Below, in pieces: positions 1,935-20,293 of a stretch of 64,000 nt of DNA (positions are counted from its first letter, which is position 1; each line of letters opens with the position of its first letter). The notes under the pieces were generated by a model that saw only the letters and a program-made list of their open reading frames with translations, had not been told where the DNA came from and searched no databases. A program made the translations under genes and the position numbers. Source of the stretch: Eledone cirrhosa (lineage: Eukaryota); NCBI GenBank assembly GCA_964016885.1, contig OZ024756.1, positions 8,370,001-8,434,000 on the forward strand, read 5' to 3'.

Positions 1935-4900
1935 CTACATACATCTAGGACCACATACAACACACCAGCAGGCAATACATACATCTAGGACCACATACAA
2001 CACACCAGCAGGTAATACACACATCTAGGACCACATACAACACACCAGCAGGTAATACACACATCTAGGAACACATACAACACATAAGCAGGTAATACAT
2101 ACATATACGACCACATATAACACACCAGCAGGTAATATACACATCTAGGACCACATACAAGACACAAGCAGGTAATACATACATCTAGAAACACATACAA
2201 CACATAAGCAGGTAATACACACATATAGGACCACATATAACACACCAGCAGGTAATACACACATCTAGGACCACATACAATACACAAGCTGGTAATACAC
2301 ACATCTACGGCCACATTACAACACACCAGCAGGTAATACATACATCTAGGACCACATACAACACACAAGTAGGTAATACACACATCTAGGACCACATACA
2401 GTACACAAGCAGGTAATACATATATCTAGGACCACATACAACACACAAGCAGGTAATACACACATCTAGGACTACATATTACACACCAGCAGGTAATACA
2501 CACATCTAGGACCACATACAACACACCAGCAGGTAATACATACACCTAGGACCACATACAACACACCAGCAGGTAATACACATATCTATGACCACATACA
2601 ACACACAAGCAGGTAATACACACATATAGGACCACATACAACACACCAGCAGGTAATACACATATCTATGACCACATACAACACACAAGCAGGTAATACA
2701 TACATCTAGGACCACATACAACACACAAGCAGGTAATACACACATCTAGGACCACATACAACACACAAGCAGGTAATACATACATCTAGGACCACATACA
2801 ACACAGAAGCAGGTAATACACACATCTACGACCACATATAACACACAAGTAGGTAATACAAACATCTAGGACGACATACAATACACAAGTAGGTAATACA
2901 CACATCTAGGACCACATACAATACACAAGCAGGTAATACACACATGTAGGGCCACATTACAACATACAAGCAGGCAATACATACATCTAGGACCATATAC
3001 AACATACAAGCAGGTACAACATACATCTAGGGCCACATACAATACACCAGCAGGTAATACACACATCTAGGACCACATAATTCACAAGCAGGTAATACAC
3101 ACATGTAGAGCCACATTACAACACACAAGCAGGTAATACATACATCTAGGACCACATACAACACACCAGCAGGTAATACACACATCTAGGATCACATACA
3201 ACACACCAGCAGGTAATACATACATCTAGGACCACATACAACACACAAGCAGGTAATACATACATCTAGGACCACATACATCACACAAGCAGGTAATACA
3301 CACATCTAGGACCACATATTACACACAAGCAGGTAATACACACATCTAGTACCACATACAACACACAAGCAGGTAATACATACATCTAGGACCACATACA
3401 ACACACCAGCAGGTAATACACACATCTAAGATCACATACAACACACCAGCAGGTAATACATACATCTAGGACCACATACAAAACACAAGCAGGTAATACA
3501 CACATCTAGGACCACATATTACACACAAGCAGGTAATACACACATCTAGTACCACATACAACACACAAGCAGGTAATACATACATCTAGGACCACATACA
3601 ACACACCAGCAGGTAATACACACATCTAGGGCCACATACAACACACAAGCAGGTAATACACACATCTAGGGCCACATACAACACACAAGCAGGTAATACA
3701 TACATCTAGGACCACATACAACACACCAGCAGGTAATACATACATCTAGGACTACATACAACACACAAGCAGGTAATACATACATCTAGGACCACATACC
3801 ACACACCAGCAGGTAATACATACATCTAGGACCACATACAACACACAAGCAGGTAATACATACATCTAGGACCACATACCACACACCAGCAGGTAATACA
3901 TACATCTAGGACCACATACAACACACCAGCAAGTAATACATACACCTAGGACCACATACAACACACAAGCAGGTAATACATACATCTAGGACCACATATA
4001 ACACACCAGCAGGTGATACATACACCTAGGACCACATACAACACACAAGCAGGTAATACATACATCTAGGACCACATACAACACACCAGCAGGTAATACA
4101 TACACCTAGGACCACATACAACACACAAGCAGGTAATACATACATCTAGGACCACATTCAAGACACAAGCAGGTAATACACACATCTAGGACCAAATACA
4201 ACACACCAGCAAGTAATACATACATCTAGGACCACATACAACACACAAGCAGGTAATACATACATCTAGGACCACATACAACACACCAGCAAGTAATACA
4301 CACATCTAGGACCACATACAACACACAAGCAGGTAATACATACACCTAGGACCACATACAACACACAAGCAGGTAATACATACACCTAGGACCACATACA
4401 ACACACCAGCAAGTAATACATACACCTAGGACCACATACAACACACCAGCAGTTAGTACATACATCTAGGACCACATACAACACACAAGCAGGTAATACA
4501 TACACCTAGGACCACATACAACACACAAGCAGGTAATACATACATCTAGGACCACATACAACACACCAGCAAGTAATACATACACCTAGGACCACATACA
4601 ACACACCAGCAAGTAATACATACACCTAGGACCACATACAACACACCAGCAGGTAATACATACATCTAGGACCACATACAACACACCAGCAAGTAATACA
4701 TACACCTAGGACCACATACCACACACAAGCAGGTAATATATACATCTAGGGCCACATACAACACACAAGTAGGTAATACACACATCTAGGACCACATACA
4801 ACACACCAGCAAGTAATACACACCTCTAGGACCACATACAACACACAAGCAGGTAATACACACATCTAGGACCACATACAACACACCAGCAAGTAATACA

Positions 4901-7900
4901 TACACCTAGGACCACATACCACACACAAGCAGGTAATACATACATCTAGGGCCACATACAACACACAAGTAGGTAATACACACATCTAGGACCACATACA
5001 ACACACCAGCAAGTAATACACACCTCTAGGACCACATACAACACACCAGCAGGTAATACATACATCTAGGACCACATACAACACACCAGCAAGTAATACA
5101 TACACCTAGGACCACATACCACACACAAGCAGGTAATACATACATTTAGGACCACATACAACACACAAGTAGGTAATACACACATCTAGGACCACATACA
5201 ACACACCAGCAAGTAATACACACCTCTAGGACCACATACAACACACCAGCAAGTAATACACACATCTAGGACCACATACAACACACCAGCAAGTAATACA
5301 CACCTCTAGGACCACATACAACACACCAGCAAGTAATACATACACCTAGGACCACATACCACACACAAGCAGGTAATACATACATCTAGGGCCACATACA
5401 ACACACAAGTAGGTAATACACACATCTAGGACCACATACAACACACCAGCAAGTAATACACACCTCTAGGACCACATACAACACACAAGCAGGTAATACA
5501 CACATCTAGGACCACATACAACACACCAGCAAGTAATACATACACCTAGGACCACATACCACACACAAGCAGGTAATACATACATCTAGGGCCACATACA
5601 ACACACAAGTAGGTAATACACACATCTAGGACCACATACAACACACCAGCAAGTAATACACACGTCTAGGACCACATACAACACACCAGCAGGTAATACA
5701 TACATCTAGGACCACACACAACACACCAGCAAGTAATACATACACCTATGACCACATACAACACACCAGCAAGTAATACATACATTTAGGACCACATACA
5801 ACACACCAGCAAGTAATACATACACCTAGGACCACATACCACACACCAGCAAGTAATACATACATTTAGCACCACATACAACACACCAGCAAGTAATACA
5901 TACACCTAGGACCACATACAACACACCAGCAAGTAATACATACATGTAGGACCACATACAACACACCAGCAAGTAATACATACACCTAGGACCACATACA
6001 ACACACCAGCAAGTAATACATACATTTAGGACCACATACAACACACCAGCAAGTAATACATACACCTAGGACCACATACAACACACCAGCAAGTAATACA
6101 TACATCTAGGATCACATACAACACACCAGCAAGTAATACATACACCTAGGACCACATACAACACACCAGCAAGTAATACATACATTTAGGACCACATACA
6201 ACACACCAGCAAGTAATACATACACCTAGGACCACATACCACACACAAGCAGGTAATACATACATTTAGGACCACATACAACACACAAGTAGGTAATACA
6301 CACATCTAGGACCACATACAACACACCAGCAAGTAATACACACCTCTAGGACCACATACAACACACCAGCAAGTAATACACACATCTAGGACCACATACA
6401 ACACACCAGCAAGTAATACACACCTCTAGGACCACATACAACACACCAGCAAGTAATACATACACCTAGGACCACATACAACACACCAGCAAGTAATACA
6501 CACCTCTAGGACCACATACAACACACCAGCAAGTAATACACACATCTAGGACCACATACAACACACAAGCAGGTAATACACACCTCTAGGACCACATACA
6601 ACACACCAGCAAGTAATACACACATCTAGGACCACATACAACACACAAGCAGGTAATACACACCTCTAGGACCACATACAACACACCAGCAAGTAATACA
6701 CACATCTAGGACCACATACAACACACCAGCAAGTAATACACACCTCTAGGACCACATACAACACACCAGCAAGTAATACATACATCTAGGACCACATACA
6801 ACACACCAGCAAGTAATACACACCTCTAGGACCACATACAACACACCAGCAAGTAATACACACCTCTAGGACCACATACAACACACCAGCAAGTAATACA
6901 CACCTCTAGGACCACATACAACACACCAGCAAGTAATACACACCTCTAGGACCACATACAACACACCAGCAAGTAATACACACCTCTAGGACCACATACA
7001 ACACACCAGCAAGTAATACACACATCTAGGACCACATACAACACACCAGCAAGTAATACACACATCTAGGACCACATACAACACACCAGCAAGTAATACA
7101 CACCTCTAGGACCACATACAACACACCAGCAAGTAATACACACCTCTAGGACCACATACAACACACCAGCAAGTAATACACACCTCTAGGACCACATACA
7201 ACACACCAGCAAGTAATACACACCTCTAGGACCACATACAACACACCAGCAAGTAATACACACCTCTAGGACCACATACAACACACCAGCAAGTAATACA
7301 CACCTCTAGGACCACATACAACACACCAGCAGGTAATACACACCTCTAGGACCACATACAACACACCAGCAAGTAATACACACCTCTAGGACCACATACA
7401 ACACACCAGCAAGTAATACACACCTCTAGGACCACATACAACACACCAGCAAGTAATACACACCTCTAGGACCACATACAACACACCAGCAAGTAATACA
7501 CACCTCTAGGACCACATACAACACACCAGCAGGTAATACACACCTCTAGGACCACATACAACACACCAGCAAGTAATACACACCTCTAGGACCACATACA
7601 ACACACCAGCAAGTAATACACACCTCTAGGACCACATACAACACACCAGCAGGTAATACACACCTCTAGGACCACATACAACACACCAGCAAGTAATACA
7701 CACCTCTAGGACCACATACAACACACCAGCAAGTAATACACACCTCTAGGACCACATACAACACACCAGCAAGTAATACACACCTCTAGGACCACATACA
7801 ACACACCAGCAAGTAATACACACCTCTAGGACCACATACAACACACCAGCAAGTAATACACACCTCTAGGACCACATACAACACACCAGCAAGTAATACA

Positions 7901-10900
7901 CACCTCTAGGACTACATACAACACACCAGCAAGTAATACACACCTCTAGGACCACATACAACACACCAGCAGGTAATACACACCTCTAGGACCACATACA
8001 ACACACCAGCAAGTAATACACACTTCTAGGACCACATACAACACACCAGCAAGTAATACACACATCTAGGACCACATACAACACACCAGCAGGTAATACA
8101 CACCTCTAGGACCACATACAACACACCAGCAGGTAATACACACCTCTAGGACCACATACAACACACCAGCAAGTAATACACACATCTAGGACCACATACA
8201 ACACACCAGCAAGTAATACACACCTCTAGGACCACATACAACACACCAGCAAGTAATACACACCTCTAGGACCACATACAACACACCAGCAAGTAATACA
8301 CACCTCTAGGACCACATACAACACACAAGCAGGTAATACATACATCTAGGACCACATACAACACACCAGCAAGTAATACACACATCTAGGAGGGCCACAT
8401 TACAACACACCAGCAAGTAATACACACCTCTAGGACCACATACAACACACCAGCAAGTAATACACACCTCTAGGACCACATACAACACACCAGCAAGTAA
8501 TACACACCTCTAGGACCACATACAACACACAAGCAGGTAATACATACACCTAGCAACACATACAACACACCAGCAGGTAATACACACATCTAGGAGGGCC
8601 ACATTACAACACACCAGCAGGTAATACACACCTCTAGGACCACATACAACACACCAGCAGGTAATACATACATCTAGGACCACATACAACACACCAGCAA
8701 GTAATACATACACCTAGGACCACATACCACACACAAGCAGGTAATACATACATTTAGGACCACATACAACACACAAGTAGGTAATACACACATCTAGGAC
8801 CACATACAACACACCAGCAAGTAATACACACCTCTAGGACCACATACAACACACCAGCAAGTAATACACACATCTAGGACCACATACAACACACCAGCAA
8901 GTAATACACACCTCTAGGACCACATACAACACACCAGCAAGTAATACATACACCTAGGACCACATACCACACACAAGCAGGTAATACATACATCTAGGGC
9001 CACATACAACACACAAGTAGGTAATACACACATCTAGGACCACATACAACACACCAGCAAGTAATACACACCTCTAGGACCACATACAACACACAAGCAG
9101 GTAATACACACATCTAGGACCACATACAACACACCAGCAAGTAATACATACACCTAGGACCACATACCACACACAAGCAGGTAATACATACATCTAGGGC
9201 CACATACAACACACAAGTAGGTAATACACACATCTAGGACCACATACAACACGCCAGCAAGTAATACACACGTCTAGGACCACATACAACACACCAGCAG
9301 GTAATACATACATCTAGGACCACATACAACACACCAGCAAGTAATACATACACCTAGGACCACATACAACACACCAGCAAGTAATACATACATTTAGGAC
9401 CACATACAACACACCAGCAAGAAATACATACACCTAGGACCACATACTACACACCAGCAAGTAATACATACATTTAGGACCACATACAACACACCAGCAA
9501 GTAATACATACACCTAGGACCACATACAACACACCAGCAAGTAATACATACATTTAGGACCACATACAACACACCAGCAAGTAATACATACACCTAGGAC
9601 CACATACAACACACCAGCAAGTAATACATACATTTAGGACCACATACAACACACCAGCAAGTAATACATACACCTAGGACCACATACAACACACCAGCAA
9701 GTAATACATACATCTAGGACCACATACAACACACCAGCAAGTAATACATACACCTAGGACCACATACAACACACCAGCAAGTAATACATACATTTAGGAC
9801 CACATACAACACACCAGCAAGTAATACATACACCTAGGACCACATACCACACACAAGCAGGTAATACATACATTTAGGACCACATACAACACACAAGTAG
9901 GTAATACACACATCTAGGACCACATACAACACACCAGCAAGTAATACACACCTCTAGGACCACATACAACACACCAGCAAGTAATACACACATCTAGGAC
10001 CACATACAACACACCAGCAAGTAATACACACCTCTAGGACCACATACAACACACCAGCAAGTAATACATACACCTAGGACCACATACAACACACCAGCAA
10101 GTAATACACACCTCTAGGACCACATACAACACACCAGCAAGTAATACACACATCTAGGACCACATACAACACACAAGCAGGTAATACACACCTCTAGGAC
10201 CACATACAACACACCAGCAAGTAATACACACATCTAGGACCACATACAACACACAAGCAGGTAATACACACCTCTAGGACCACATACAACACACCAGCAA
10301 GTAATACACACATCTAGGACCACATACAACACACAAGCAGGTAATACACACCTCTAGGACCACATACAACACACCAGCAAGTAATACACACATCTAGGAC
10401 CACATACAACACACCAGCAAGTAATACACACCTCTAGGACCACATACAACACACCAGCAAGTAATACATACATCTAGGACCACATACAACACACCAGCAA
10501 GTAATACACACCTCTAGGACCACATACAACACACCAGCAAGTAATACACACCTCTAGGACCACATACAACACACCAGCAAGTAATACACACCTCTAGGAC
10601 CACATACAACACACCAGCAAGTAATACACACATCTAGGACCACATACAACACACCAGCAAGTAATACACACCTCTAGGACCACATACAACACACCAGCAA
10701 GTAATACACACCTCTAGGACCACATACAACACACCAGCAAGTAATACACACCTCTAGGACCACATACAACACACCAGCAAGTAATACACACCTCTAGGAC
10801 CACATACAACACACCAGCAAGTAATACACACCTCTAGGACCACATACAACACACCAGCAAGTAATACACACCTCTAGGACCACATACAACACACCAGCAA

Positions 10901-12298
10901 GTAATACACACCTCTAGGACCACATACAACACACCAGCAGGTAATACACACCTCTAGGACCACATACAACACACCAGCAAGTAATACACACCTCTAGGAC
11001 CACATACAACACACCAGCAAGTAATACACACCTCTAGGACCACATACAACACACCAGCAAGTAATACACACCTCTAGGACCACATACAACACACCAGCAA
11101 GTAATACACACCTCTAGGACCACATACAACACACCAGCAAGTAATACACACCTCTAGGACCACATACAACACACCAGCAGGTAATACACACCTCTAGGAC
11201 CACATACAACACACCAGCAAGTAATACACACCTCTAGGACCACATACAACACACCAGCAAGTAATACACACCTCTAGGACCACATACAACACACCAGCAG
11301 GTAATACACACCTCTAGGACCACATACAACACACCAGCAAGTAATACACACCTCTAGGACCACATACAACACACCAGCAAGTAATACACACCTCTAGGAC
11401 CACATACAACACACCAGCAAGTAATACACACCTCTAGGACCACATACAACACACCAGCAAGTAATACACACCTCTAGGACCACATACAACACACCAGCAA
11501 GTAATACACACCTCTAGGACCACATACAACACACCAGCAAGTAATACACACCTCTAGGACCACATACAACACACCAGCAAGTAATACACACCTCTAGGAC
11601 CACATACAACACACCAGCAGGTAATACACACCTCTAGGACCACATACAACACACCAGCAAGTAATACACACCTCTAGGACCACATACAACACACCAGCAA
11701 GTAATACACACATCTAGGACCACATACAACACACCAGCAGGTAATACACACCTCTAGGACCACATACAACACACCAGCAGGTAATACACACCTCTAGGAC
11801 CACATACAACACACCAGCAAGTAATACACACATCTAGGACCACATACAACACACCAGCAAGTAATACACACCTCTAGGACCACATACAACACACCAGCAA
11901 GTAATACACACCTCTAGGACCACATACAACACACCAGCAAGTAATACACACCTCTAGGACCACATACAACACACAAGCAGGTAATACATACATCTAGGAC
12001 CACATACAACACACCAGCAAGTAATACACACATCTAGGAGGGCCACATTACAACACACCAGCAGGTAATACACACCTCTAGGACCACATACAACACACCA
12101 GCAAGTAATACACACCTCTAGGACCACATACAACACACCAGCAAGTAATACACACCTCTAGGACCACATACAACACACAAGCAGGTAATACATACACCTA
12201 GCAACACATACAACACACCAGCAGGTAATACACACATCTAGGAGGGCCACATTACAACACACCAGCAGGTAATACACACCTCTAGGACCACATACAAC
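1935..12298. repeat. 40-bp minisatellite array, ~259 copies
   Basis: Consensus CTAGGACCACATACAACACACCAGCA(A/G)GTAATACACAC(C/A)T with a strict 40-bp period, a few 41- and 44-bp variants, and strong A/C skew on the + strand. Confidence 0.98.
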
Positions 12299-12365
12299 AA
12301 AAGGCAGGTGAAAGGGGTGGACAAACGTACCGCTGCCAAAGTAAAAGATAACAATATTGCGATGA

Positions 12366-12421: not shown

Positions 12422-12566
12422 ATTTATAATGTTCCAAACAATAATTAATAGTATTTATTAATTGTGTTTATATTTTTATTCCGTAAGAATTATAAACAAT
12501 TGTAACGTTAATTATACACTGTGAATAAAACAGTCCCGGTTCTGTTGTGCTAGAGCGTATCATGTT

Positions 12567-12598
12567 TGATATAGAAATGGCTTCTACAACTAGAACTC
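12567..12598. mobile_element. fragment of fold-back family B
   Basis: ATATAGAAATGGCTTCTACA-ACTAGAACT matches 16510-16540 and abuts (TA)n. Confidence 0.65.
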
Positions 12599-12650
<52 letters not shown>

Positions 12651-12769
12651 TATATTTAAAATTGTTGGGTTACAACTAGTAAATATTTATAACTGATATA
12701 AAAGCACTCGACAAATACTTGGAGTATGTTTACAATATTAAATAAATGGAAAACTATATTTATAAAACC

Positions 12770-12843
12770 ATATTTATTTCATTATATATATTTCGGGGAT
12801 ATATTAACAATATGCTATGCCTTCATCAGACAAAATACAATAT
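12770..12843 (-). ncRNA. minimal type I hammerhead ribozyme motif (inverted copy)
   Basis: Reverse-complement copy of the motif at 12981-13057: CTGATGA at 12829-12823, GAAA at 12794-12791, same stems I and III. Confidence 0.7.
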
Positions 12844-12980
12844 AAACAGTTTTATAGATAAATATATTCGACATACCGTAATAAACATCAACATCAACAT
12901 CACTCTGCTAGAGTGAACCTCTTCAAATGATGTTGATGTTTATTACGGTATGTCGAATATATTTATCTATAAAACTGTTT

Positions 12981-13057
12981 ATATTGTATTTTGTCTGATG
13001 AAGGCATAGCATATTGTTAATATGATATCTCCGAAATATATATAATGAAATAAATAT
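12981..13057 (+). ncRNA. minimal type I hammerhead ribozyme motif
   Basis: Stem I 5' ATATTGTATTTTGT, CTGATGA (12995-13001), stem II AGG..CATATT/AATATG..CC, GAAA (13033-13036), short stem III with palindromic ATAT loop, AUA triplet (cut after 13044), stem I 3' ATGAAATAAATAT. Confidence 0.7.
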
Positions 13058-13277
13058 GGTTTTATAAATATAGTTTTCCATTTATTTAATATTGTATATA
13101 TATATATATATATATATACATATTTAGATAAGGAAAAGAAACTGAAAATGTAACTGGAGTCTTTTAAGAATATTATTTACTTGACCGGCTTCACAGTTTT
13201 AATGATTTTCAAAAGAAAAATCGAGATGGAGGGGTTGTGTTTCTGTTGAGGTTTGTTTCGCACTTAGTTGGGAGTTC

Positions 13278-13278
<1 letters not shown>

Positions 13279-13321
<43 letters not shown>

Positions 13322-13437
13322 AGTTGACGGGTCTAGCATGGGTTTTACTGTTAGTACCGGTTATATATATGTATATATATATATATATATAAAATAAATT
13401 GACGGGTCTAGCATGGATTTTACTGTTAGTACCGGTT
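13279..13437. repeat. tandem duplication of (TA)n plus a 47-bp unique segment
   Basis: AAAATAA(G/A)TTGACGGGTCTAGCATGG(G/A)TTTTACTGTTAGTACCGGTT at 13316 and 13391, each preceded by (TA)n. Confidence 0.9.
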
Positions 13438-13460
13438 GCATCTCAGCGCACTCAATAGGT

Positions 13461-13553
13461 ACTTTGCCTTTCATCCTTACGGGGTCGATAAAATAAAGTA
13501 CCAGTAATGCACTGGGTATTTGCTGGCCTTGTGTCTCAAGTAGAAACAATTAT
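13461..13553 (+). mobile_element. 5'-truncated SINE copy
   Basis: ACTTTGCCTTTCATCCTTACGGGGTCGATAAAATAAAGTACCAGTAATGCACTGGGTA...AGTAGAAACAATTA matches 724-816. Confidence 0.8.
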
Positions 13554-13669
13554 GTAAACTGCCAGAGTAGACACATAATTATTCGTTTCAATACACACAG
13601 TTCGGTGAAATATATATACACAGTTCAATTAATATACATACTGTATTTTTATATGCGTATCCTTATATA

Positions 13670-13850
13670 TACGAGAATATGTTGAAACATTCATAGGCTG
13701 ACTATTAAGCAGTGATGCTAGAGCTGTGAAATTTTGCATACATTAATTTCAACTCTTATTTATGACTGCATCGTTTCTTTCCAGGGACTATGTTGAAAAA
13801 TAACCCTCATTTGGTCAGACCATGAGAGAATCTTGGTCAGCCGAGCTTCA
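13670..13850. mobile_element. degenerate mariner-like MITE (second copy)
   Basis: Homologous along its length to 15899-16088 (TGAAACATTCATAGGCTGACTAT...GGGACTATGTTGAAAAATAA...CCATGAGAG.ATCTTGGTCAGCC). It starts TACGAG and the right TIR is eroded. Confidence 0.7.
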
Positions 13851-14339
13851 TATATTATACAGACGTGATAAAAAGTATTTTAGAAAACTGTATATTTATA
13901 AATATATAAATAAATAACTTCATTTGAAACAGAGAGACATTAATCGATGAAATCAATTACAGAAAACATCGATATAAGCCGCCACATCAAAAGAAGAAGA
14001 ATTGTTGATTAGCCCCGATCTTGGAGACGTTCTAACCATGCCATTCCATCCTATCGCATCTTTTTTTTAATTATATTTTTACCCTCGTTTATCTATGATT
14101 ATATTCTCCAAACCTTCTTTGTTTTAGACGTGGGTAGACGGGTAACATGTGACTTTGATGAGATATTTGGCTTCTATTTCTAGCACATTGAGCGACCACA
14201 TCAGAGCCTTCTCCCTTGACAGTTCAATAACCAGGATAAAAGGGTAGACAGAAAAACGGATACAAAAGATTACCCCCCAAAAACACGCAAGAAGCTATTA
14301 AAGGTTGTATTGGCTTGCTAAATAAACGAACAAATGGAT

Positions 14340-14386
<47 letters not shown>

Positions 14387-14387
<1 letters not shown>

Positions 14388-14565
14388 CGGAGGAAATGTC
14401 GTAAGGAACCGGGTGGACCATAACGCACCAAAGTACTCAATACTTAGGGTAGTAGAGTGGGTAATAGGAACGAGTAGGACCCCGACGGTTGAGCTCAAGC
14501 CGTTTCGACAGAATTAGCCATCGAAACGGCTTGAATTCAGCCGTCGGGGTCCTACTCGTTCCTAT
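14387..14565. mobile_element. fold-back element family C, copy 1, inserted in (TA)n
   Basis: ~45-bp inverted arms at 14464-14508 and 14521-14565, with (TA)n on both sides. It is near-identical to 17231-17390 and contains the hammerhead 3' half GAAAC-GGC..GCC-GTC. Confidence 0.8.
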
Positions 14566-14569
14566 ATAT

Positions 14570-14638
<69 letters not shown>

Positions 14639-14916
14639 AAGAGAGAGATGGATAGATAGAGAGATAGTGAGAGAGATGAATAGATATACACACTCACATA
14701 TATGTCTTTTAAAGAGGAAGTAACACACTCACATATATATATTTCCAATGACAAGACTGTCACTGACAACACCAACACACATTGTGGTAGTTAAAACTAT
14801 TATCACCCCCAGATAATTCCAGCAGGATCATGCCTGGAATGTTACAAATTTAATGGAGGTTTTTAAACTAGAGTTCCTCTTATTCAATCGACATTCCTTT
14901 GTCTTGTCATTTACAG

Positions 14917-15334
14917 CAGAGGTTCTCAAAGTAGGTGCTACTGCCCCTCGAGGGAGTTCAGAACGTACAGGGACACTGGGGCTTAAGGGAGGTGGTAGAG
15001 ATGATATAATAGTATATTAAATATCAAATGATACATATTATATACAAATATAGTAAAATATAAAATATATAATATTTATACATAGTATATATTATATTAT
15101 TACGTTCTGAGTTCAAATCCCGCCGAGGTTAACTTTGCCTTTCATCCTTACCAGGTCGATAAAATAAAGTACCAGTAATACACTGGAATAATTGCTGGCC
15201 TTGTGTCAAAAGTAGAAAATTATTTGCAATTTGTGTGTTGGCAGGTCTCTCTGGAAACAGGGTAGTGGTGGGGGGGGGGGCTGAGGCTATTACGTGCAGT
15301 GAGGGCAGTGGTGCCTAAGGTTTGAAAACCTGTC
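14917..15334. mobile_element. hAT(Charlie)-like MITE with nested SINE
   Basis: TIRs CAGAGGTTCTCAAA and TTTGAAAACCTG. The flanking direct repeat ATTTACAG (14909-14916, 15335-15342) fits an 8-bp hAT target-site duplication. Confidence 0.7.
15100..15223 (+). mobile_element. tRNA-derived SINE copy nested in the hAT MITE
   Basis: TTACGTTCTGAGTTCAAATCCCGCCGAGGTTAACTTTGCC...GCTGGCCTTGTGTCAAAAGTAGAAA is homologous to 692-816. Confidence 0.8.
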
Positions 15335-15549
15335 ATTTACAGAAATCAGAGATTTTCTAACAACAAAAAAAACATCTAAATTTACCTTTTAATTACCCTA
15401 GTTTATTTGTATGTTGCTGTTGTTGCTGTTTTTGTTTAGTCCCAATTCAGAGCCGATTGTACTGACCAGTGGTCTAAGATATTCCAGCCAAGATCATCAT
15501 TTTTGTTATTGTTTAGTTCCAATTCAAACCCGATTGACAAGTATCCATA

Positions 15550-15650
15550 CAAGGTCGGTAAAATAAAGCACCAGTCACACACAGGAGTCTAATATAACTC
15601 ACTTCCCCCTCTTCTAAAGTTGGTCTTCAGCTAAAATTAGAACCCATTAT
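15550..15650 (+). mobile_element. old, longer-form SINE relic
   Basis: GGTCGGTAAAATAAAGCACCAGT is followed by an extra internal segment (..ACTTCCCCCT..) that the young copies lack. Confidence 0.5.
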
Positions 15651-15898
15651 CAGTGATAAGTGGAGCCGGCATACGGAAGTAATATGGAATATATCAATTG
15701 TTTTAAGTCTAGGATTTAGTCAGAAATATCTGGCTTACCGGATATATGAACAATCACACTAATTGGGAAAATTGCGTTTTAATAAAGTTATCGTTTGCAT
15801 AAGAGAAACCCTATAGTTTATGTTGAAATACAAACATGTTGAAATAATTGAAGATAAAAATGATATTTTAAATAACTTATTTCTAGGATATGACATTA

Positions 15899-16088
15899 TG
15901 GGGGTAAGCTGAAACATTCATAGGCTGACTATGAAGGAGTGATGCTAAAGCTGTTAAATCTTGCATACATTAATTGCAACTCTTCTTATCAATAACTGCA
16001 TTGAGGGACTATGTTGAAAAATAAACCTCATTTGGTCATTCCATGAGAGTATCTTGGTCAGCCTATGAACCTTTTCAGCTAACTGTCG
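15899..16088. mobile_element. Tc1/mariner-like MITE with TA target-site duplication
   Basis: ~30-bp TIRs (TA)TGGGGGTAAGCTGAAACATTCATAGGCTGAC and GTCAGCCTATGAACCTTTTCAGCTAACTGTCG(TA). Confidence 0.75.
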
Positions 16089-16432
16089 TATATGTCCAGT
16101 ACCTAACTAAACACTAGGTTAAATGTATGAGTAATTTTCGAGAAATAACTATTTACAGAGATAGATTTTAGGGGTTAGAACTGAGGACCTTGTGCTTGAA
16201 AAGTGAACCTATAGCAACATGACAAATAAGAAATGTACAGAGTGTGTAAATTTTAAAGAATTACAGTCGAAATATTAGATTTTGAGGTCTGCAGTTGGTG
16301 CCATAACGTAATCTACAGAGGTTACCCACTGACCAACGATACTGATTAGCATTGAGATTCTATAATCTTTCCCGGGATATATATTGGTAAACTCTAATAT
16401 AATCTAATACACATGTGTGTGTGTGTGTGTGT

Positions 16433-16632
16433 GGGAGTCCTGGGTTCAATCGGGGGTAACCACTATAAGTAAGGTTCTCAATACATTAGTAGAGTATATA
16501 CAAAATTTAATATAGAAATGGCTTCTACAGGACTAGAACTGTTTCATTCGAAGGAAATCATCAGGCTTTCCTGATAATTTCCTTCTAATGAAACAGTTCT
16601 AATCAAGTAGAAGCCATTTCTATATTAAATAT
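16433..16632. mobile_element. fold-back element family B, copy 1, between (TG)n tracts
   Basis: Inverted arms at 16505-16564 and 16571-16630, homologous to 17577-17770 in the opposite orientation, with hammerhead cores in the arms. Confidence 0.75.
16520..16565 (-). ncRNA. hammerhead ribozyme core (intact core; 5' strand of stem I lost at the inversion point)
   Basis: The minus strand reads CTGATGA-T-TTC(CTTC)GAA-T-GAA-ACAG(TTCTAGTC)CTGT-A|GAAGCC, with a GUA triplet. The matching stem I strand GGCTTTC survives in front of the + arm core at 16564-16570. Confidence 0.55.
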
Positions 16633-17009
16633 TGTGTGTGTGTGCATACACCTAGGACCACATACGTGTGTGTGTGTATACAAACACACATGGTGTGTTA
16701 TTGTGGTTGATGTGGGTGTAGTTTAAGCTGACATAAATATATTTAAAAAAAAGTATAGTTGGAAATTTTTGATAAGGGGAATAAATGAATAATGTGTCTC
16801 TTGGAGGGCTAGAAATCTTTTTTTTTTTGCCCATTTATTCCTGAGAGGGTCGTGGAGGCTCCTCAAACACTCTGCATCAGGTCCTGTAAGAAGCAACCAT
16901 CTCCAACTGATTCGGTTGGACAGCCAAGCATGACCAACCAAGCTCATGGATGTTATCCAACCATCTTGCTCGGGGTCTACCCCTATCGACGAGAAACCAG
17001 TGAGGAAAC

Positions 17010-17185
17010 TAATTGTTTCTACTTTTTGGCACAAGGCCAGCAATTATCCAGTGCATTACTGATGAAAATAATTGTTTCTACTTTAGGCACAAGGCCAGCA
17101 ATTACTCAGTGCATTACTGGTACTTTATTTTATCGACCCCGTAAGGATGAAAGGCAAAGTTAACCTCAGCGCGATTGAAGCTGTA

Positions 17186-17186
<1 letters not shown>
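17010..17186 (-). mobile_element. SINE copy with duplicated 3' tail
   Basis: Reverse complement of the SINE body at 17066-17186 plus a second tail at 17010-17061. Confidence 0.8.
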
Positions 17187-17230
<44 letters not shown>

Positions 17231-17231
<1 letters not shown>

Positions 17232-17385
17232 CGAAGGAAATGTGATAAGGAACCAGGTGGACCATAACGCACCAAAGTACTCAATACTTAGGGTAGTAGA
17301 GTGGGTAATAGGAACGAGTCGGACCCCGACGTCCAGAATTAGCCGTCGAAACGGCTTGAGCTCAGCCGTCGGGGTCCTACTCGTT

Positions 17386-17390
<5 letters not shown>
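17231..17390. mobile_element. fold-back element family C, copy 2, inserted in (TA)n
   Basis: Near-identical to 14387-14565 but with a shorter left arm (17308-17331). (TA)n lies at 17190-17230 and 17388-17427. Confidence 0.8.
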
Positions 17391-17430
<40 letters not shown>

Positions 17431-17576
17431 TAGGTACCAAAGCAAACATTCTATGCACAGGCAGAGTGTATATATTAGAAAAAACGAGTTTACATGTATA
17501 TGATGTAAATATATGTAAACGAAACTTCGTTTATTTTCTTATATCTATATAAATATATAGATATATATATAGAGAG

Positions 17577-17770
17577 AGAGATGACTTCTACAGGACTAGG
17601 ACTGTTTCATTCGTATGAAATTATCAGTATATTCCTGATTTCATACGAATGAAACAGTTCTAGTCCTGTAGAAGTCATTTCTAAATATAACAAAGATGCT
17701 TCTACTCTACCAATGTATTGAGTATCTCTTTTTAACTGTGGTTAAACCTCGACACAACTAGGGAATCTAC
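17577..17770. mobile_element. fold-back element family B, copy 2
   Basis: Inverted arms at 17577-17627 and 17635-17682 containing GAAACAGTTCTAGTCCTGTAGAAG, then a tail to 17770 ending in TA repeats. Confidence 0.75.
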
Positions 17771-19448: not shown

Positions 19449-20293
19449 TTTCTACAGTTGGATACCCTTCCTAACGCCAACTACATTTACAGTGTTTACG
19501 GGACGCTTTTTGTGATAACACTTACATGATCACTTTACAGTGTGGACTGGTGCTTTTTGTTGTGACACCTACACAACCACTTTACAGTGTGGACTGGTGC
19601 TTTTTGTTGTGACACCTACACAACCACTTTACAGTGTGGACTGGTGCTTTTTGTTGTGACACCTACACAACCACTTTACAGTGTGGACTGGTGCTTTTTG
19701 CTGTGACACCTACACAACCACTTTACAGTGTGGACTGGTGCTTTTTGTTGTGACACCTACACAACCACTTTACAGTGTGGACTGGTGCTTTTTGTTGTGA
19801 CACTTACATGACCACTTTACAGTGTGGACTGGTGCTTTTTGTTGTGATACTTACATGACCACTTTACAGTGTGGACTGGTGCTTTTTGTTGTGACACTTA
19901 CATGACCACTTTACAGTGTGGACTGGTGCTTTTTGTTGTGACACCTACACAACCACTTTACAGTGTGGACTGGTGCTTTTTGTTGTGACACTTACATGAC
20001 CACTTTACAGTGTCGACTGGTGCTTTTTGTTGTGACACCTACACAACCACTTTACAGTGTGGACTGGTGCTTTTTGTTGTGACACCTACACAACCACTTT
20101 ACAGTGTGGACTGGTGCTTTTTGTTGTGACACCTACACAACCACTTTACAGTGTCGACTGGTGCTTTTTGTTGTGACACCTACACAACCACTTTACAGTG
20201 TCGACTGGTGCTTTTTGTTGTGACACCTACACAACCACTTTACAGTGTCGACTGGTGCTTTTTGTTGTGACACCTACACAACCACTTTACAGT
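19449..20293 (+). repeat. 47-bp minisatellite (~17 copies) grown from a dispersed repeat
   Basis: Unit CCACTTTACAGTGTGGACTGGTGCTTTTTGTTGTGACACCTACACAA (e.g. at 19577 and 19624), preceded by the head TTTCTACAGTTGGATACCCTTCCTAACGCCAAC. Confidence 0.95.

What the first reader, a model, noticed from the sequence alone, without database searches (positions are those of the whole stretch)
12567..17770. Cluster of microsatellite-embedded fold-back elements of three families, all carrying hammerhead ribozyme motifs
Seen: five elements (12647-13096, 14387-14565, 16433-16632, 17231-17390, 17577-17770) plus a fragment (12567) share one layout: dinucleotide microsatellite, a 70-90 bp unique tail, an inverted repeat centred near a hammerhead core (CTGATGA..GAAA..NUH, or its 3' half), then microsatellite. 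The three families are not alignable overall. Known: Penelope-like retroelements carry minimal type I hammerheads in their pseudo-LTRs and often leave inverted pLTR segments. Inference: these are a non-coding, ribozyme-bearing, (TA)n-associated mobile system (Penelope-dependent, retrozyme/MITE-like). No RT or GIY-YIG ORF is present in the window.
Basis: partly seen in the sequence, partly recalled or inferred. Interest (0 to 1): 0.85.

Follow-up and report, generated by a model that had tools for sequence, protein, structure and literature searches.

The report
Stub ends of Hydra-type Penelope retrotransposons
The five hairpin-shaped inserts are the short tail ends of three protein-coding Penelope-like jumping genes, likely folded back when both cut ends of a TA repeat copied the same RNA; only one still holds a complete self-cutting RNA motif, so this is mostly a known kind of debris, with one shared small hairpin that may tell the enzyme where to start copying.

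Summary
The layout is real: (TA)n, inverted arm, sense arm, a 60-86 nt one-sided tail, microsatellite. The three families are dispersed repeats, with exact tail-pattern hits of 617 (A), 26,521 (B) and 3,147 (C). Each traces to a coding Hydra-clade Penelope-like element: A to a 4-kb element with a 737-aa ORF, B to a 719-aa ORF, C to degraded ORF ends in two collinear loci. So this is not a separate non-coding system. Only element A holds complete hammerheads. B copies start downstream of the 5' core half (U3-A8 variant in the parent), and both C copies are broken. The 3' ends and the inverted arm's outer edge are fixed (B: 89 of 100 and 69 of 78), junctions differ per copy (61 of 64 distinct), and 5' ends pile up at a likely transcription start, not at the ribozyme cut site. 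This fits twin priming at two internal RNA sites, as published for another Penelope element. The scan found this architecture before on other DNA of this genome. Added here: parents for all three families, and a tail hairpin (RCTC...GAGYRC) shared by 7 of 8 families examined and two published Hydra consensuses.

The parts
12647..12896 (-). Family A sense arm (+24 to +284 of the unit): complete type I hammerhead (core at 12829), tail hairpin (12704-12725) and 86-nt tail
   Evidence: 97.7% identical to the 3' end of the 4-kb element in L213
12905..13096 (+). Family A inverted arm (+1 to +198), with the second complete hammerhead (core at 12995)
12562..12597 (-). Family C fragment (+31 to +68), 3' part of the hammerhead region only
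13317..13461 (-). Family D tail fragment (3' half of the tail hairpin to the 3' end, last 45 nt duplicated); longer copies elsewhere carry a hammerhead and the full hairpin (L235)
14387..14509 (-). Family B copy 1 sense arm (+19 to +144): 3' half of hammerhead, tail hairpin (14433-14458), 80-nt tail
14509..14565 (+). Family B copy 1 inverted arm (+8 to +64)
16433..16565 (-). Family C copy 1 sense arm (+6 to 3' end): CTGATGA core at 16564 with stem I strand cut off; tail
16564..16633 (+). Family C copy 1 inverted arm (0 to +69), core mutated
17231..17330 (-). Family B copy 2 sense arm (+42 to +144), tail hairpin 17277-17302
17331..17390 (+). Family B copy 2 inverted arm (+5 to +64)
17561..17627 (-). 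Family C copy 2 inverted arm (+7 to +72), core mutated
17636..17770 (+). Family C copy 2 sense arm and diverged tail (alignable +11 to +110), core partly deleted

Best explanation
These are 5'-truncated, inverted 3' ends of three coding Hydra-clade Penelope-like retrotransposons, likely made when the element's enzyme nicks both strands of a (TA)n repeat and both DNA ends prime reverse transcription at two fixed sites on the element RNA. Shown: parentage, fixed 3' end, fixed outer edge of the inverted arm, per-copy junctions, a sharp 5' wall. Inferred: one nick primes at the unit's 3' end and the other 60-86 nt upstream, which leaves the one-sided tail. Both cDNAs run toward the RNA's 5' end, probably the transcription start in the pseudo-LTR, and their ends join, often over short palindromic words. 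The short template is probably the 5' copy of the unit in the terminally redundant full-length RNA, or a short transcript from promoter-bearing long copies. The hammerhead is a carried-along part of the pseudo-LTR and is probably not needed to make the stubs; in the folded-back A copy it is predicted to be buried in the long hairpin.
For: Parents: 5 of 5 same-strand 4-kb pairs of A tails enclose one ORF (4 open for 737-738 codons, 1 frameshifted). L257 has B unit - 719-aa ORF - 3' UTR - B unit, 41% identical to the A protein. L425 and L426 have ORF end - UTR - long C - C unit in one orientation. Both intact proteins show the Hydra hallmarks listed in PMC8557442 section 11: RWR for RWK, DKT, CxCx5C, CxxC and CxH, plus YRDD. 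Geometry in position-ordered samples: B 3' end at +144 in 89 of 100, inverted-arm edge at +64 in 69 of 78; A 3' end at +284 in 60 of 60, edge at +196-198 in 27 of 34; C edge at +61-73 in 18 of 20. Arms within a locus differ by 0.69 nt per 24 against 2.53 between loci; 61 of 64 inter-arm segments are distinct, and the repeated ones sit on different haplotypes. Three B copies have sense arms starting beyond the inverted arm's edge (L324, L354, L371), which a simple fold-back cannot give. 56 of 100 B sense arms start at -5 to +10 and only 8 reach past -10. TATAAATAC lies 30 nt before the C wall in 24 of 30 long copies (these were picked by similarity to that stretch). L377 starts at the B wall and runs on into the ORF. 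PMC11167929 reports for an anole Penelope element: both strands cut and extended, two internal RT start sites bounding the tail, and hammerhead mutants without effect on insertion.
Against: No RNA data could test the transcription start or any cleavage. B has a weak TATA-like word and A none, so the wall could be a strong RT stop instead. C's parent ORF is seen only as degraded pieces 1.3-1.8 kb upstream across microsatellites, in 2 of 6 extended loci, and my first two tries to link it failed. Pfam gave no family for either protein tested and no tree was built, so clade assignment rests on motifs. Samples are exact-pattern (young) copies from contig C1 only. Arm identity could partly reflect gene conversion. 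The in vitro mechanism comes from another clade (Poseidon).
Confidence: 0.82

Rival explanations
1. Same origin, but the short units (above all B) now spread SINE-like: short copies are transcribed and reverse-transcribed in trans by the Hydra enzyme, so they are a true non-autonomous family.
For: B has 26,521 exact tail hits and only 8 of 100 copies extend upstream of the wall. In L376 a short unit starting at +5 is joined to the middle of the ORF, which shows template jumps from a short product. PMC3846280 reports pLTR-mediated mobilisation in trans (passages). The preprint 10.64898/2026.07.22.740005 argues that retrozymes are non-autonomous PLE derivatives (part 1 of 5).
Against: All three main B haplotypes (25, 22 and 15 copies) also occur in long copies (7 long among 100), so no large short-only lineage was seen. 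Short copies lack the upstream TATA-like region. ORF-bearing RNA starts at the same wall (L377). No tandem arrays of the unit, the retrozyme hallmark, were seen.
Confidence: 0.3
2. The inverted arm arises by self-priming (fold-back) on one strand, as proposed for rotifer Penelope elements, rather than by twin priming.
For: Short palindromic words sit at many junctions. PMC3846280 reads junction palindromes as self-priming on an antisense template (passage).
Against: The two arms often end at different points, and some do not overlap at all (L324, L354, L371; L199, L209). The outer edge stays fixed whether the inner end is at -378 or +101 in A.
Confidence: 0.1
3. They are MITE-like DNA transposons that move as whole hairpins.
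For: Short, non-coding, high copy, inverted repeats, TA flanks.
Against: The inverted repeat is one-sided with a 60-86 nt tail, junctions are not inherited (61 of 64 distinct), and each unit is continuous with an RT-endonuclease ORF in long copies.
Confidence: 0.02

Closest known systems
Hydra clade of C-terminal EN+ Penelope-like elements (Craig et al. 2021, PMC8557442; section 11, passages, supplement parts seen)
   Same: Single ORF of about 720-740 aa with RWK-like, DKT, CxCx5C, CxxC and CxH motifs; (TA)n insertion; type I hammerhead near the 3' end, family C with the same extra U on each side of stem II as many listed Hydra hammerheads; partial tandems, inverted 5'-truncated copy, one-sided tail.
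   Different: New families (the N-terminal sequences differ from the Hydra-1_Obim stretch shown). Units are 4.0 kb (A) against <3 kb reported; tails are 60-86 nt against 30-40 bp given for PLEs; B has tens of thousands of stubs and a U3-A8 core with the likely promoter inside stem II.
Poseidon element of Anolis (Frangieh et al. 2024, PMC11167929; parts 1-2 of 4 read)
   Same: Tail bounded by two fixed RT start sites; AT-rich target; hammerhead not needed for insertion.
   Different: Other clade; there the start sites lie inside the ORF start in an AC-rich stem-loop, here they flank an RCTC...GAGYRC hairpin upstream of the ORF.
Minimal hammerheads of PLE pseudo-LTRs (Cervera and de la Pena 2014, PMC4209133; part 1 of 4 read)
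   Same: Type I motifs in pLTRs, mostly as single motifs of truncated PLEs, pairs 100-700 bp apart on opposite strands, and a U3-A8 core variant.
   Different: Nothing essential; here most short B and C copies have lost part of the motif.
Non-LTR retrozymes of animals (Li et al. preprint 10.64898/2026.07.22.740005; part 1 of 5 read)
   Same: Non-coding, hammerhead-derived, PLE-related.
   Different: Retrozymes are defined there as tandem units each with a complete hammerhead; these are single fold-back stubs, mostly without a complete motif, and continuous with coding parents.

Membership tests
Hydra-clade PLE | Single ORF with RT and C-terminal GIY-YIG-type endonuclease linked to the unit | tested here: met
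   A: 737 aa; B: 719 aa; Atlas neighbours carry PF26215, PF01541 or PF00078 on part of their members. C: only degraded ORF ends in 2 of 6 extended loci. Pfam itself gave no hit.
Hydra-clade PLE | RWK-like, DKT, CxCx5C linker, CxxC and CxH motifs | tested here: met
   Read from the translations against PMC8557442 section 11; RWR instead of RWK in both
Hydra-clade PLE | Placement in the Hydra clade by RT phylogeny | not tested
   Reference proteins were visible only in the paper's supplement and were not available as input; no tree built
Hydra-clade PLE | Insertion in (TA)n | tested here: met
   3' flank is (TA)n in 91 of 100 B and 56 of 60 A copies; C ends in (TA)n or (CA)n
Hydra-clade PLE | Type I hammerhead in the pseudo-LTR | tested here: met
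   A: 79 of 85 motif matches identical and complete; C: complete in long copies, 5 of 30 position-ordered copies; B: only in long copies, U3-A8 in 7 of 10 distinct contexts, mismatched 3:8 pair in 3
EN+ PLE insertion structure | Partial tandems, inverted 5'-truncated copy, one-sided tail | tested here: met
Self-cleaving hammerhead ribozyme | Self-cleavage of the RNA | not testable with these tools
   No assay; no pile-up of insertion 5' ends at the predicted B cut site (5 of 100 in +41-50, against 6 and 6 in the neighbouring bins)
Non-LTR retrozyme | Tandem units each with a complete hammerhead | tested here: not met
   No tandem arrays of the short units in the window or sampled copies; 1 of 5 window elements has a complete motif
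MITE / DNA transposon | Terminal inverted repeats at both ends, copied as a fixed unit | tested here: not met
   One-sided tail; 61 of 64 junctions distinct
MITE / DNA transposon | Target-site duplication | tested here: inconclusive
   Cannot be read inside (TA)n flanks

The most novel reading that the evidence does not exclude
The RCTC-loop-GAGYRC hairpin just 3' of the inverted arm's start is a clade-wide RNA signal that recruits the Hydra reverse transcriptase and sets both initiation sites, and a unit of about 145 nt (start site to 3' end, ribozyme-free) is the minimal RNA that the enzyme inserts into (TA)n, by twin priming.
Probability: 0.4. Interest if true: 0.58.

Novelty: new member of a known kind. 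Interest (0 to 1): 0.3.

Why it matters
As a class it is known: Penelope ends with hammerheads, inverted copies and tails are published, and the scan has noted them before in this genome. The value is practical. Young, intact Hydra elements (A copies 98% identical, open ORFs) and thousands of stubs give exact predicted RT start sites, a 5' wall and a candidate recognition hairpin. These make the open question of how Penelope inverted structures form directly testable in a clade for which I found no in vitro study. The data also suggest that the most successful family spreads stubs without a complete ribozyme, in line with the hammerhead being dispensable for insertion.

Tried and rejected
Rfam scan: no hammerhead model hit at E<=10; no hit in parent loci either, only a U6 copy in L181. 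The genome-wide GIY-YIG Pfam search returned other Penelope families; in its 30 fetched loci the only strong matches to A/B/C were 3 unlinked B or C units. Pfam gave no family for P0001 or P0002; the PDB sequence search gave 3 hits at E 0.65-0.91, none meaningful. Idea that cleaved RNA is the template: a hint at +42-49 in the first 30 B copies vanished at n=100. Idea that U6 is part of family C: present in 1 of 30 loci, rejected. The ORF beside C in L181/L253 belongs to another family with its own hammerhead end. A search with part of the L254 UTR found a different repeat and no long C in 30 loci. 4 of 6 extended long-C loci showed no ORF. Sequencing runs: no RNA holder listed; laying contigs of X1, X4 and X5 mixed related families and gave nothing on starts or ends. 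Minimum-energy folding of the isolated A hammerhead did not give the hammerhead fold (-6.2 kcal/mol), and B tails did not fold the proposed hairpin as their best structure. The tail hairpin was not seen in the L255 family, and the A-like copy in L256 lacks its 5' half. A word search of earlier scan notes for the hairpin or promoter found nothing.
Full report
Setting. The window is G000:C17:8370001-8434000 of a 3.0-Gb genome; the host was not identified. The finding lies in an 8.4-kb gap between a 40-bp satellite (1936-12299) and a 32-bp satellite (20729-64000), rich in (TA)n.

Observation. Each has an inverted repeat, a one-sided tail and microsatellite flanks. The hammerhead claim holds only in part. 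A type I descriptor found two complete motifs, both in element A (12995 +, 12829 -; 8-bp stem I), against 2 of 200 block shuffles with any hit. B1 and B2 carry only the 3' half. C1 has one intact core whose stem I strand is cut off, and C2 has none. Rfam found no hammerhead. The window holds no RT or endonuclease frame.

Copy number. Exact tail patterns gave 617 (A), 26,521 (B) and 3,147 (C) hits, with 0 for reversed controls; these are lower bounds. In 98,022 nt of loci picked for an unrelated GIY-YIG hit there were 3 B or C units, so five elements in 5.2 kb is a local excess. I attribute it to the dense (TA)n targets but did not test that.

Parents. A: five pairs of tail hits about 4.0 kb apart on one strand were fetched, and all 5 enclose the same ORF (4 open for 737-738 codons, 1 frameshifted). 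B: L257 reads unit, 719-aa ORF, 3' UTR, unit, and the protein is 41% identical to A's; four other B pairs fetched were not such tandems. C: long copies extend about 290 nt upstream of the short unit to a microsatellite. In 2 of 6 extended loci (L425, L426) a degraded ORF end lies upstream in the same orientation, and L254 has the related ORF as an adjacent inverted arm; this link is weaker than for A and B. Both intact proteins show RWR, DKT, YRDD, CxCx5C, a split GIY-YIG-like motif, CxxC and CxH, the features given for the Hydra clade in PMC8557442 section 11. Pfam was silent; Atlas neighbours are animal proteins of about 700 aa, part of them with PLE-type domains. No tree was built.

Hammerheads in the parents. 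A is complete and almost invariant (79 of 85 matches identical). C has the layout of many listed Hydra motifs, with an extra U on each side of stem II, and is complete on the tail arm in 5 of 30 position-ordered copies. B's 5' core half lies about 40 nt upstream of where short copies begin. It reads U3-A8 in 7 of 10 distinct long contexts and is mismatched in 3. A U3-A8 variant is reported for Schistosoma PLEs in PMC4209133 (part 1 of 4). A transcript through the folded-back A copy is predicted to form one long hairpin (-257 to -261 kcal/mol) that buries both motifs.

Geometry. Samples were the first listed exact-pattern hits on contig C1: 100 of 26,521 B, 60 of 617 A, 30 of 3,147 C. Coordinates run from a zero at the pile-up of 5' ends. 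B: 3' end at +144 in 89 of 100, (TA)n beyond it in 91, an inverted arm found in 78 with its outer edge at +64 in 69. A: 3' end at +284 in 60 of 60, an arm in 34, edge at +196-198 in 27. C: an arm in 20, edge at +61-73 in 18. The tail is thus the stretch between two fixed sites. Among 64 B copies with both arms covering +40 to +63, arms differ by 0.69 nt within a locus and 2.53 between loci; 61 inter-arm segments are distinct, and the two repeated ones occur on different haplotypes. The fold-back is therefore made at each insertion. Three B copies have sense arms that start beyond the inverted arm's edge, an inversion without overlap.

The 5' wall. 56 of 100 B sense arms start between -5 and +10; 8 reach past -10 (two of these are the arms of one locus). 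In A, 28 of 60 extend upstream and 18 start within 10 nt of zero. In C, 28 of 30 start at or after zero. Long C copies have CCAAT words and TATAAATAC 30 nt before zero in 24 of 30 (selected by similarity to that stretch). B has a weaker TATA-like word 25-29 nt upstream, and A none. The words at the wall resemble initiator motifs (consensus recalled; PMC3846280 notes a TATA box plus TCACT in a rotifer pLTR, passage). L377 begins at the B wall with an inverted arm and runs on into the ORF, so ORF-bearing RNA starts there too. A start site is the simplest reading but is untested: no RNA run was listed. The predicted B cleavage site (+44/45) shows no excess of ends (5 of 100, neighbouring bins 6 and 6).

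Mechanism. Inferred: the enzyme nicks both strands of (TA)n; one end primes at the unit's 3' end and the other at the upstream fixed site; both cDNAs run to or toward the RNA's 5' end and are joined. PMC11167929 (parts 1-2 of 4) shows for an anole element that both strands are cut and extended, that two internal start sites bound the tail, and that hammerhead mutants do not affect insertion. PMC8557442 describes tandems, inverted copies and tails as general PLE features (passages). Whether the short template is the 5' copy in the full-length RNA or a separate short RNA is open. The three main B haplotypes all occur among the 7 long copies of the 100, which argues against a large short-only lineage, but rarer haplotypes had no long copy in this small sample.

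Shared tail hairpin. Just 3' of the upstream fixed site, A, B and C share RCTC-loop-GAGYRC (0.015-0.15% of shuffled tails match, but the pattern was defined after seeing them). It also appears in the families of L232, L253 and L258 (the last related to A) and in family D, which was not used to define it. It is not seen in the L255 family and is half lost in L256, so 7 of 8 families looked at by eye. In the supplement of PMC8557442 the ends of Hydra-2_Amil and Hydra-2_Ajap show it with GCTC/GAGC, a change on both sides of one pair. Hydra-1_Amil has a partial match; Hydra-1_Obim and Hydra-1_Ajap end soon after the hammerhead without it; the end of Hydra-1_Crog and all Repbase families were not seen. 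The stem is only 4-6 bp and is not the best fold for B tails, so its role is a hypothesis. Four paper searches did not show a description of it, but none targeted the motif, and Repbase notes or unread supplement parts may hold one. An earlier scan note (e1-9593267) mentions a small start signal whose nature I could not see.

Verdict. A real feature of a known kind: stubs of new Hydra-clade Penelope families, already noted by the scan elsewhere in this genome. Interest 0.3, carried by the testable start sites and the candidate hairpin.

Noticed in passing
window 13317-13461 (-); L235, L260: Tail fragment of a fourth hammerhead-bearing family (D), with its last 45 nt duplicated across a (TA)n run; a longer copy in L235 has a hammerhead and the tail hairpin with a 26-nt loop.
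   Followed up: partly
window 1936-12299, 20729-64000, 19478-20293, 149-547: Large satellite arrays of 40 bp (259 copies) and 32 bp (1,353 copies, to the window end), plus 47-48-bp minisatellites; the 47-bp unit matched 37 of 428 fetched loci.
   Followed up: no
window 13461-13553, 15100-15225, 17001-17176: Copies of another very common short repeat (matched 108 of 428 fetched loci), one with a 58-nt tandem duplication.
   Followed up: no
window 13678-13842 and 15905-16063: Two diverged copies (89-93%) of a further dispersed repeat, matched in 8 of 428 loci.
   Followed up: no
L181 1142-1246 (-): A U6 snRNA copy (110 bits) inserted antisense inside a long family C copy; seen in 1 of 30 long-C loci.
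   Followed up: partly
L376-L377 (G000:C1:25028471-25030258): One insertion made of an inverted arm, the 5' unit plus about 240 codons of the B ORF, then a jump to a short 3' unit starting at +5: a template switch. L154 shows a similar jump from the 3' UTR.
   Followed up: partly
L222 3800-3850 and other long B copies: The likely promoter (TATA-like word and start site) of family B lies inside the enlarged stem II of its own hammerhead, so an RNA starting there cannot contain the whole ribozyme.
   Followed up: partly
L168, L344: Poly(T) or poly(A) runs of 15 nt or more at the junction between the two arms of B copies.
   Followed up: no
L091-L120: The genome holds many other GIY-YIG-coding Penelope families (10,596 first-look candidates), some with degenerate hammerhead-like ends.
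   Followed up: no
L227, L244, L425: The CCAAT-bearing 43-nt segment upstream of family C is tandemly amplified 8-14 times in some copies.
   Followed up: no
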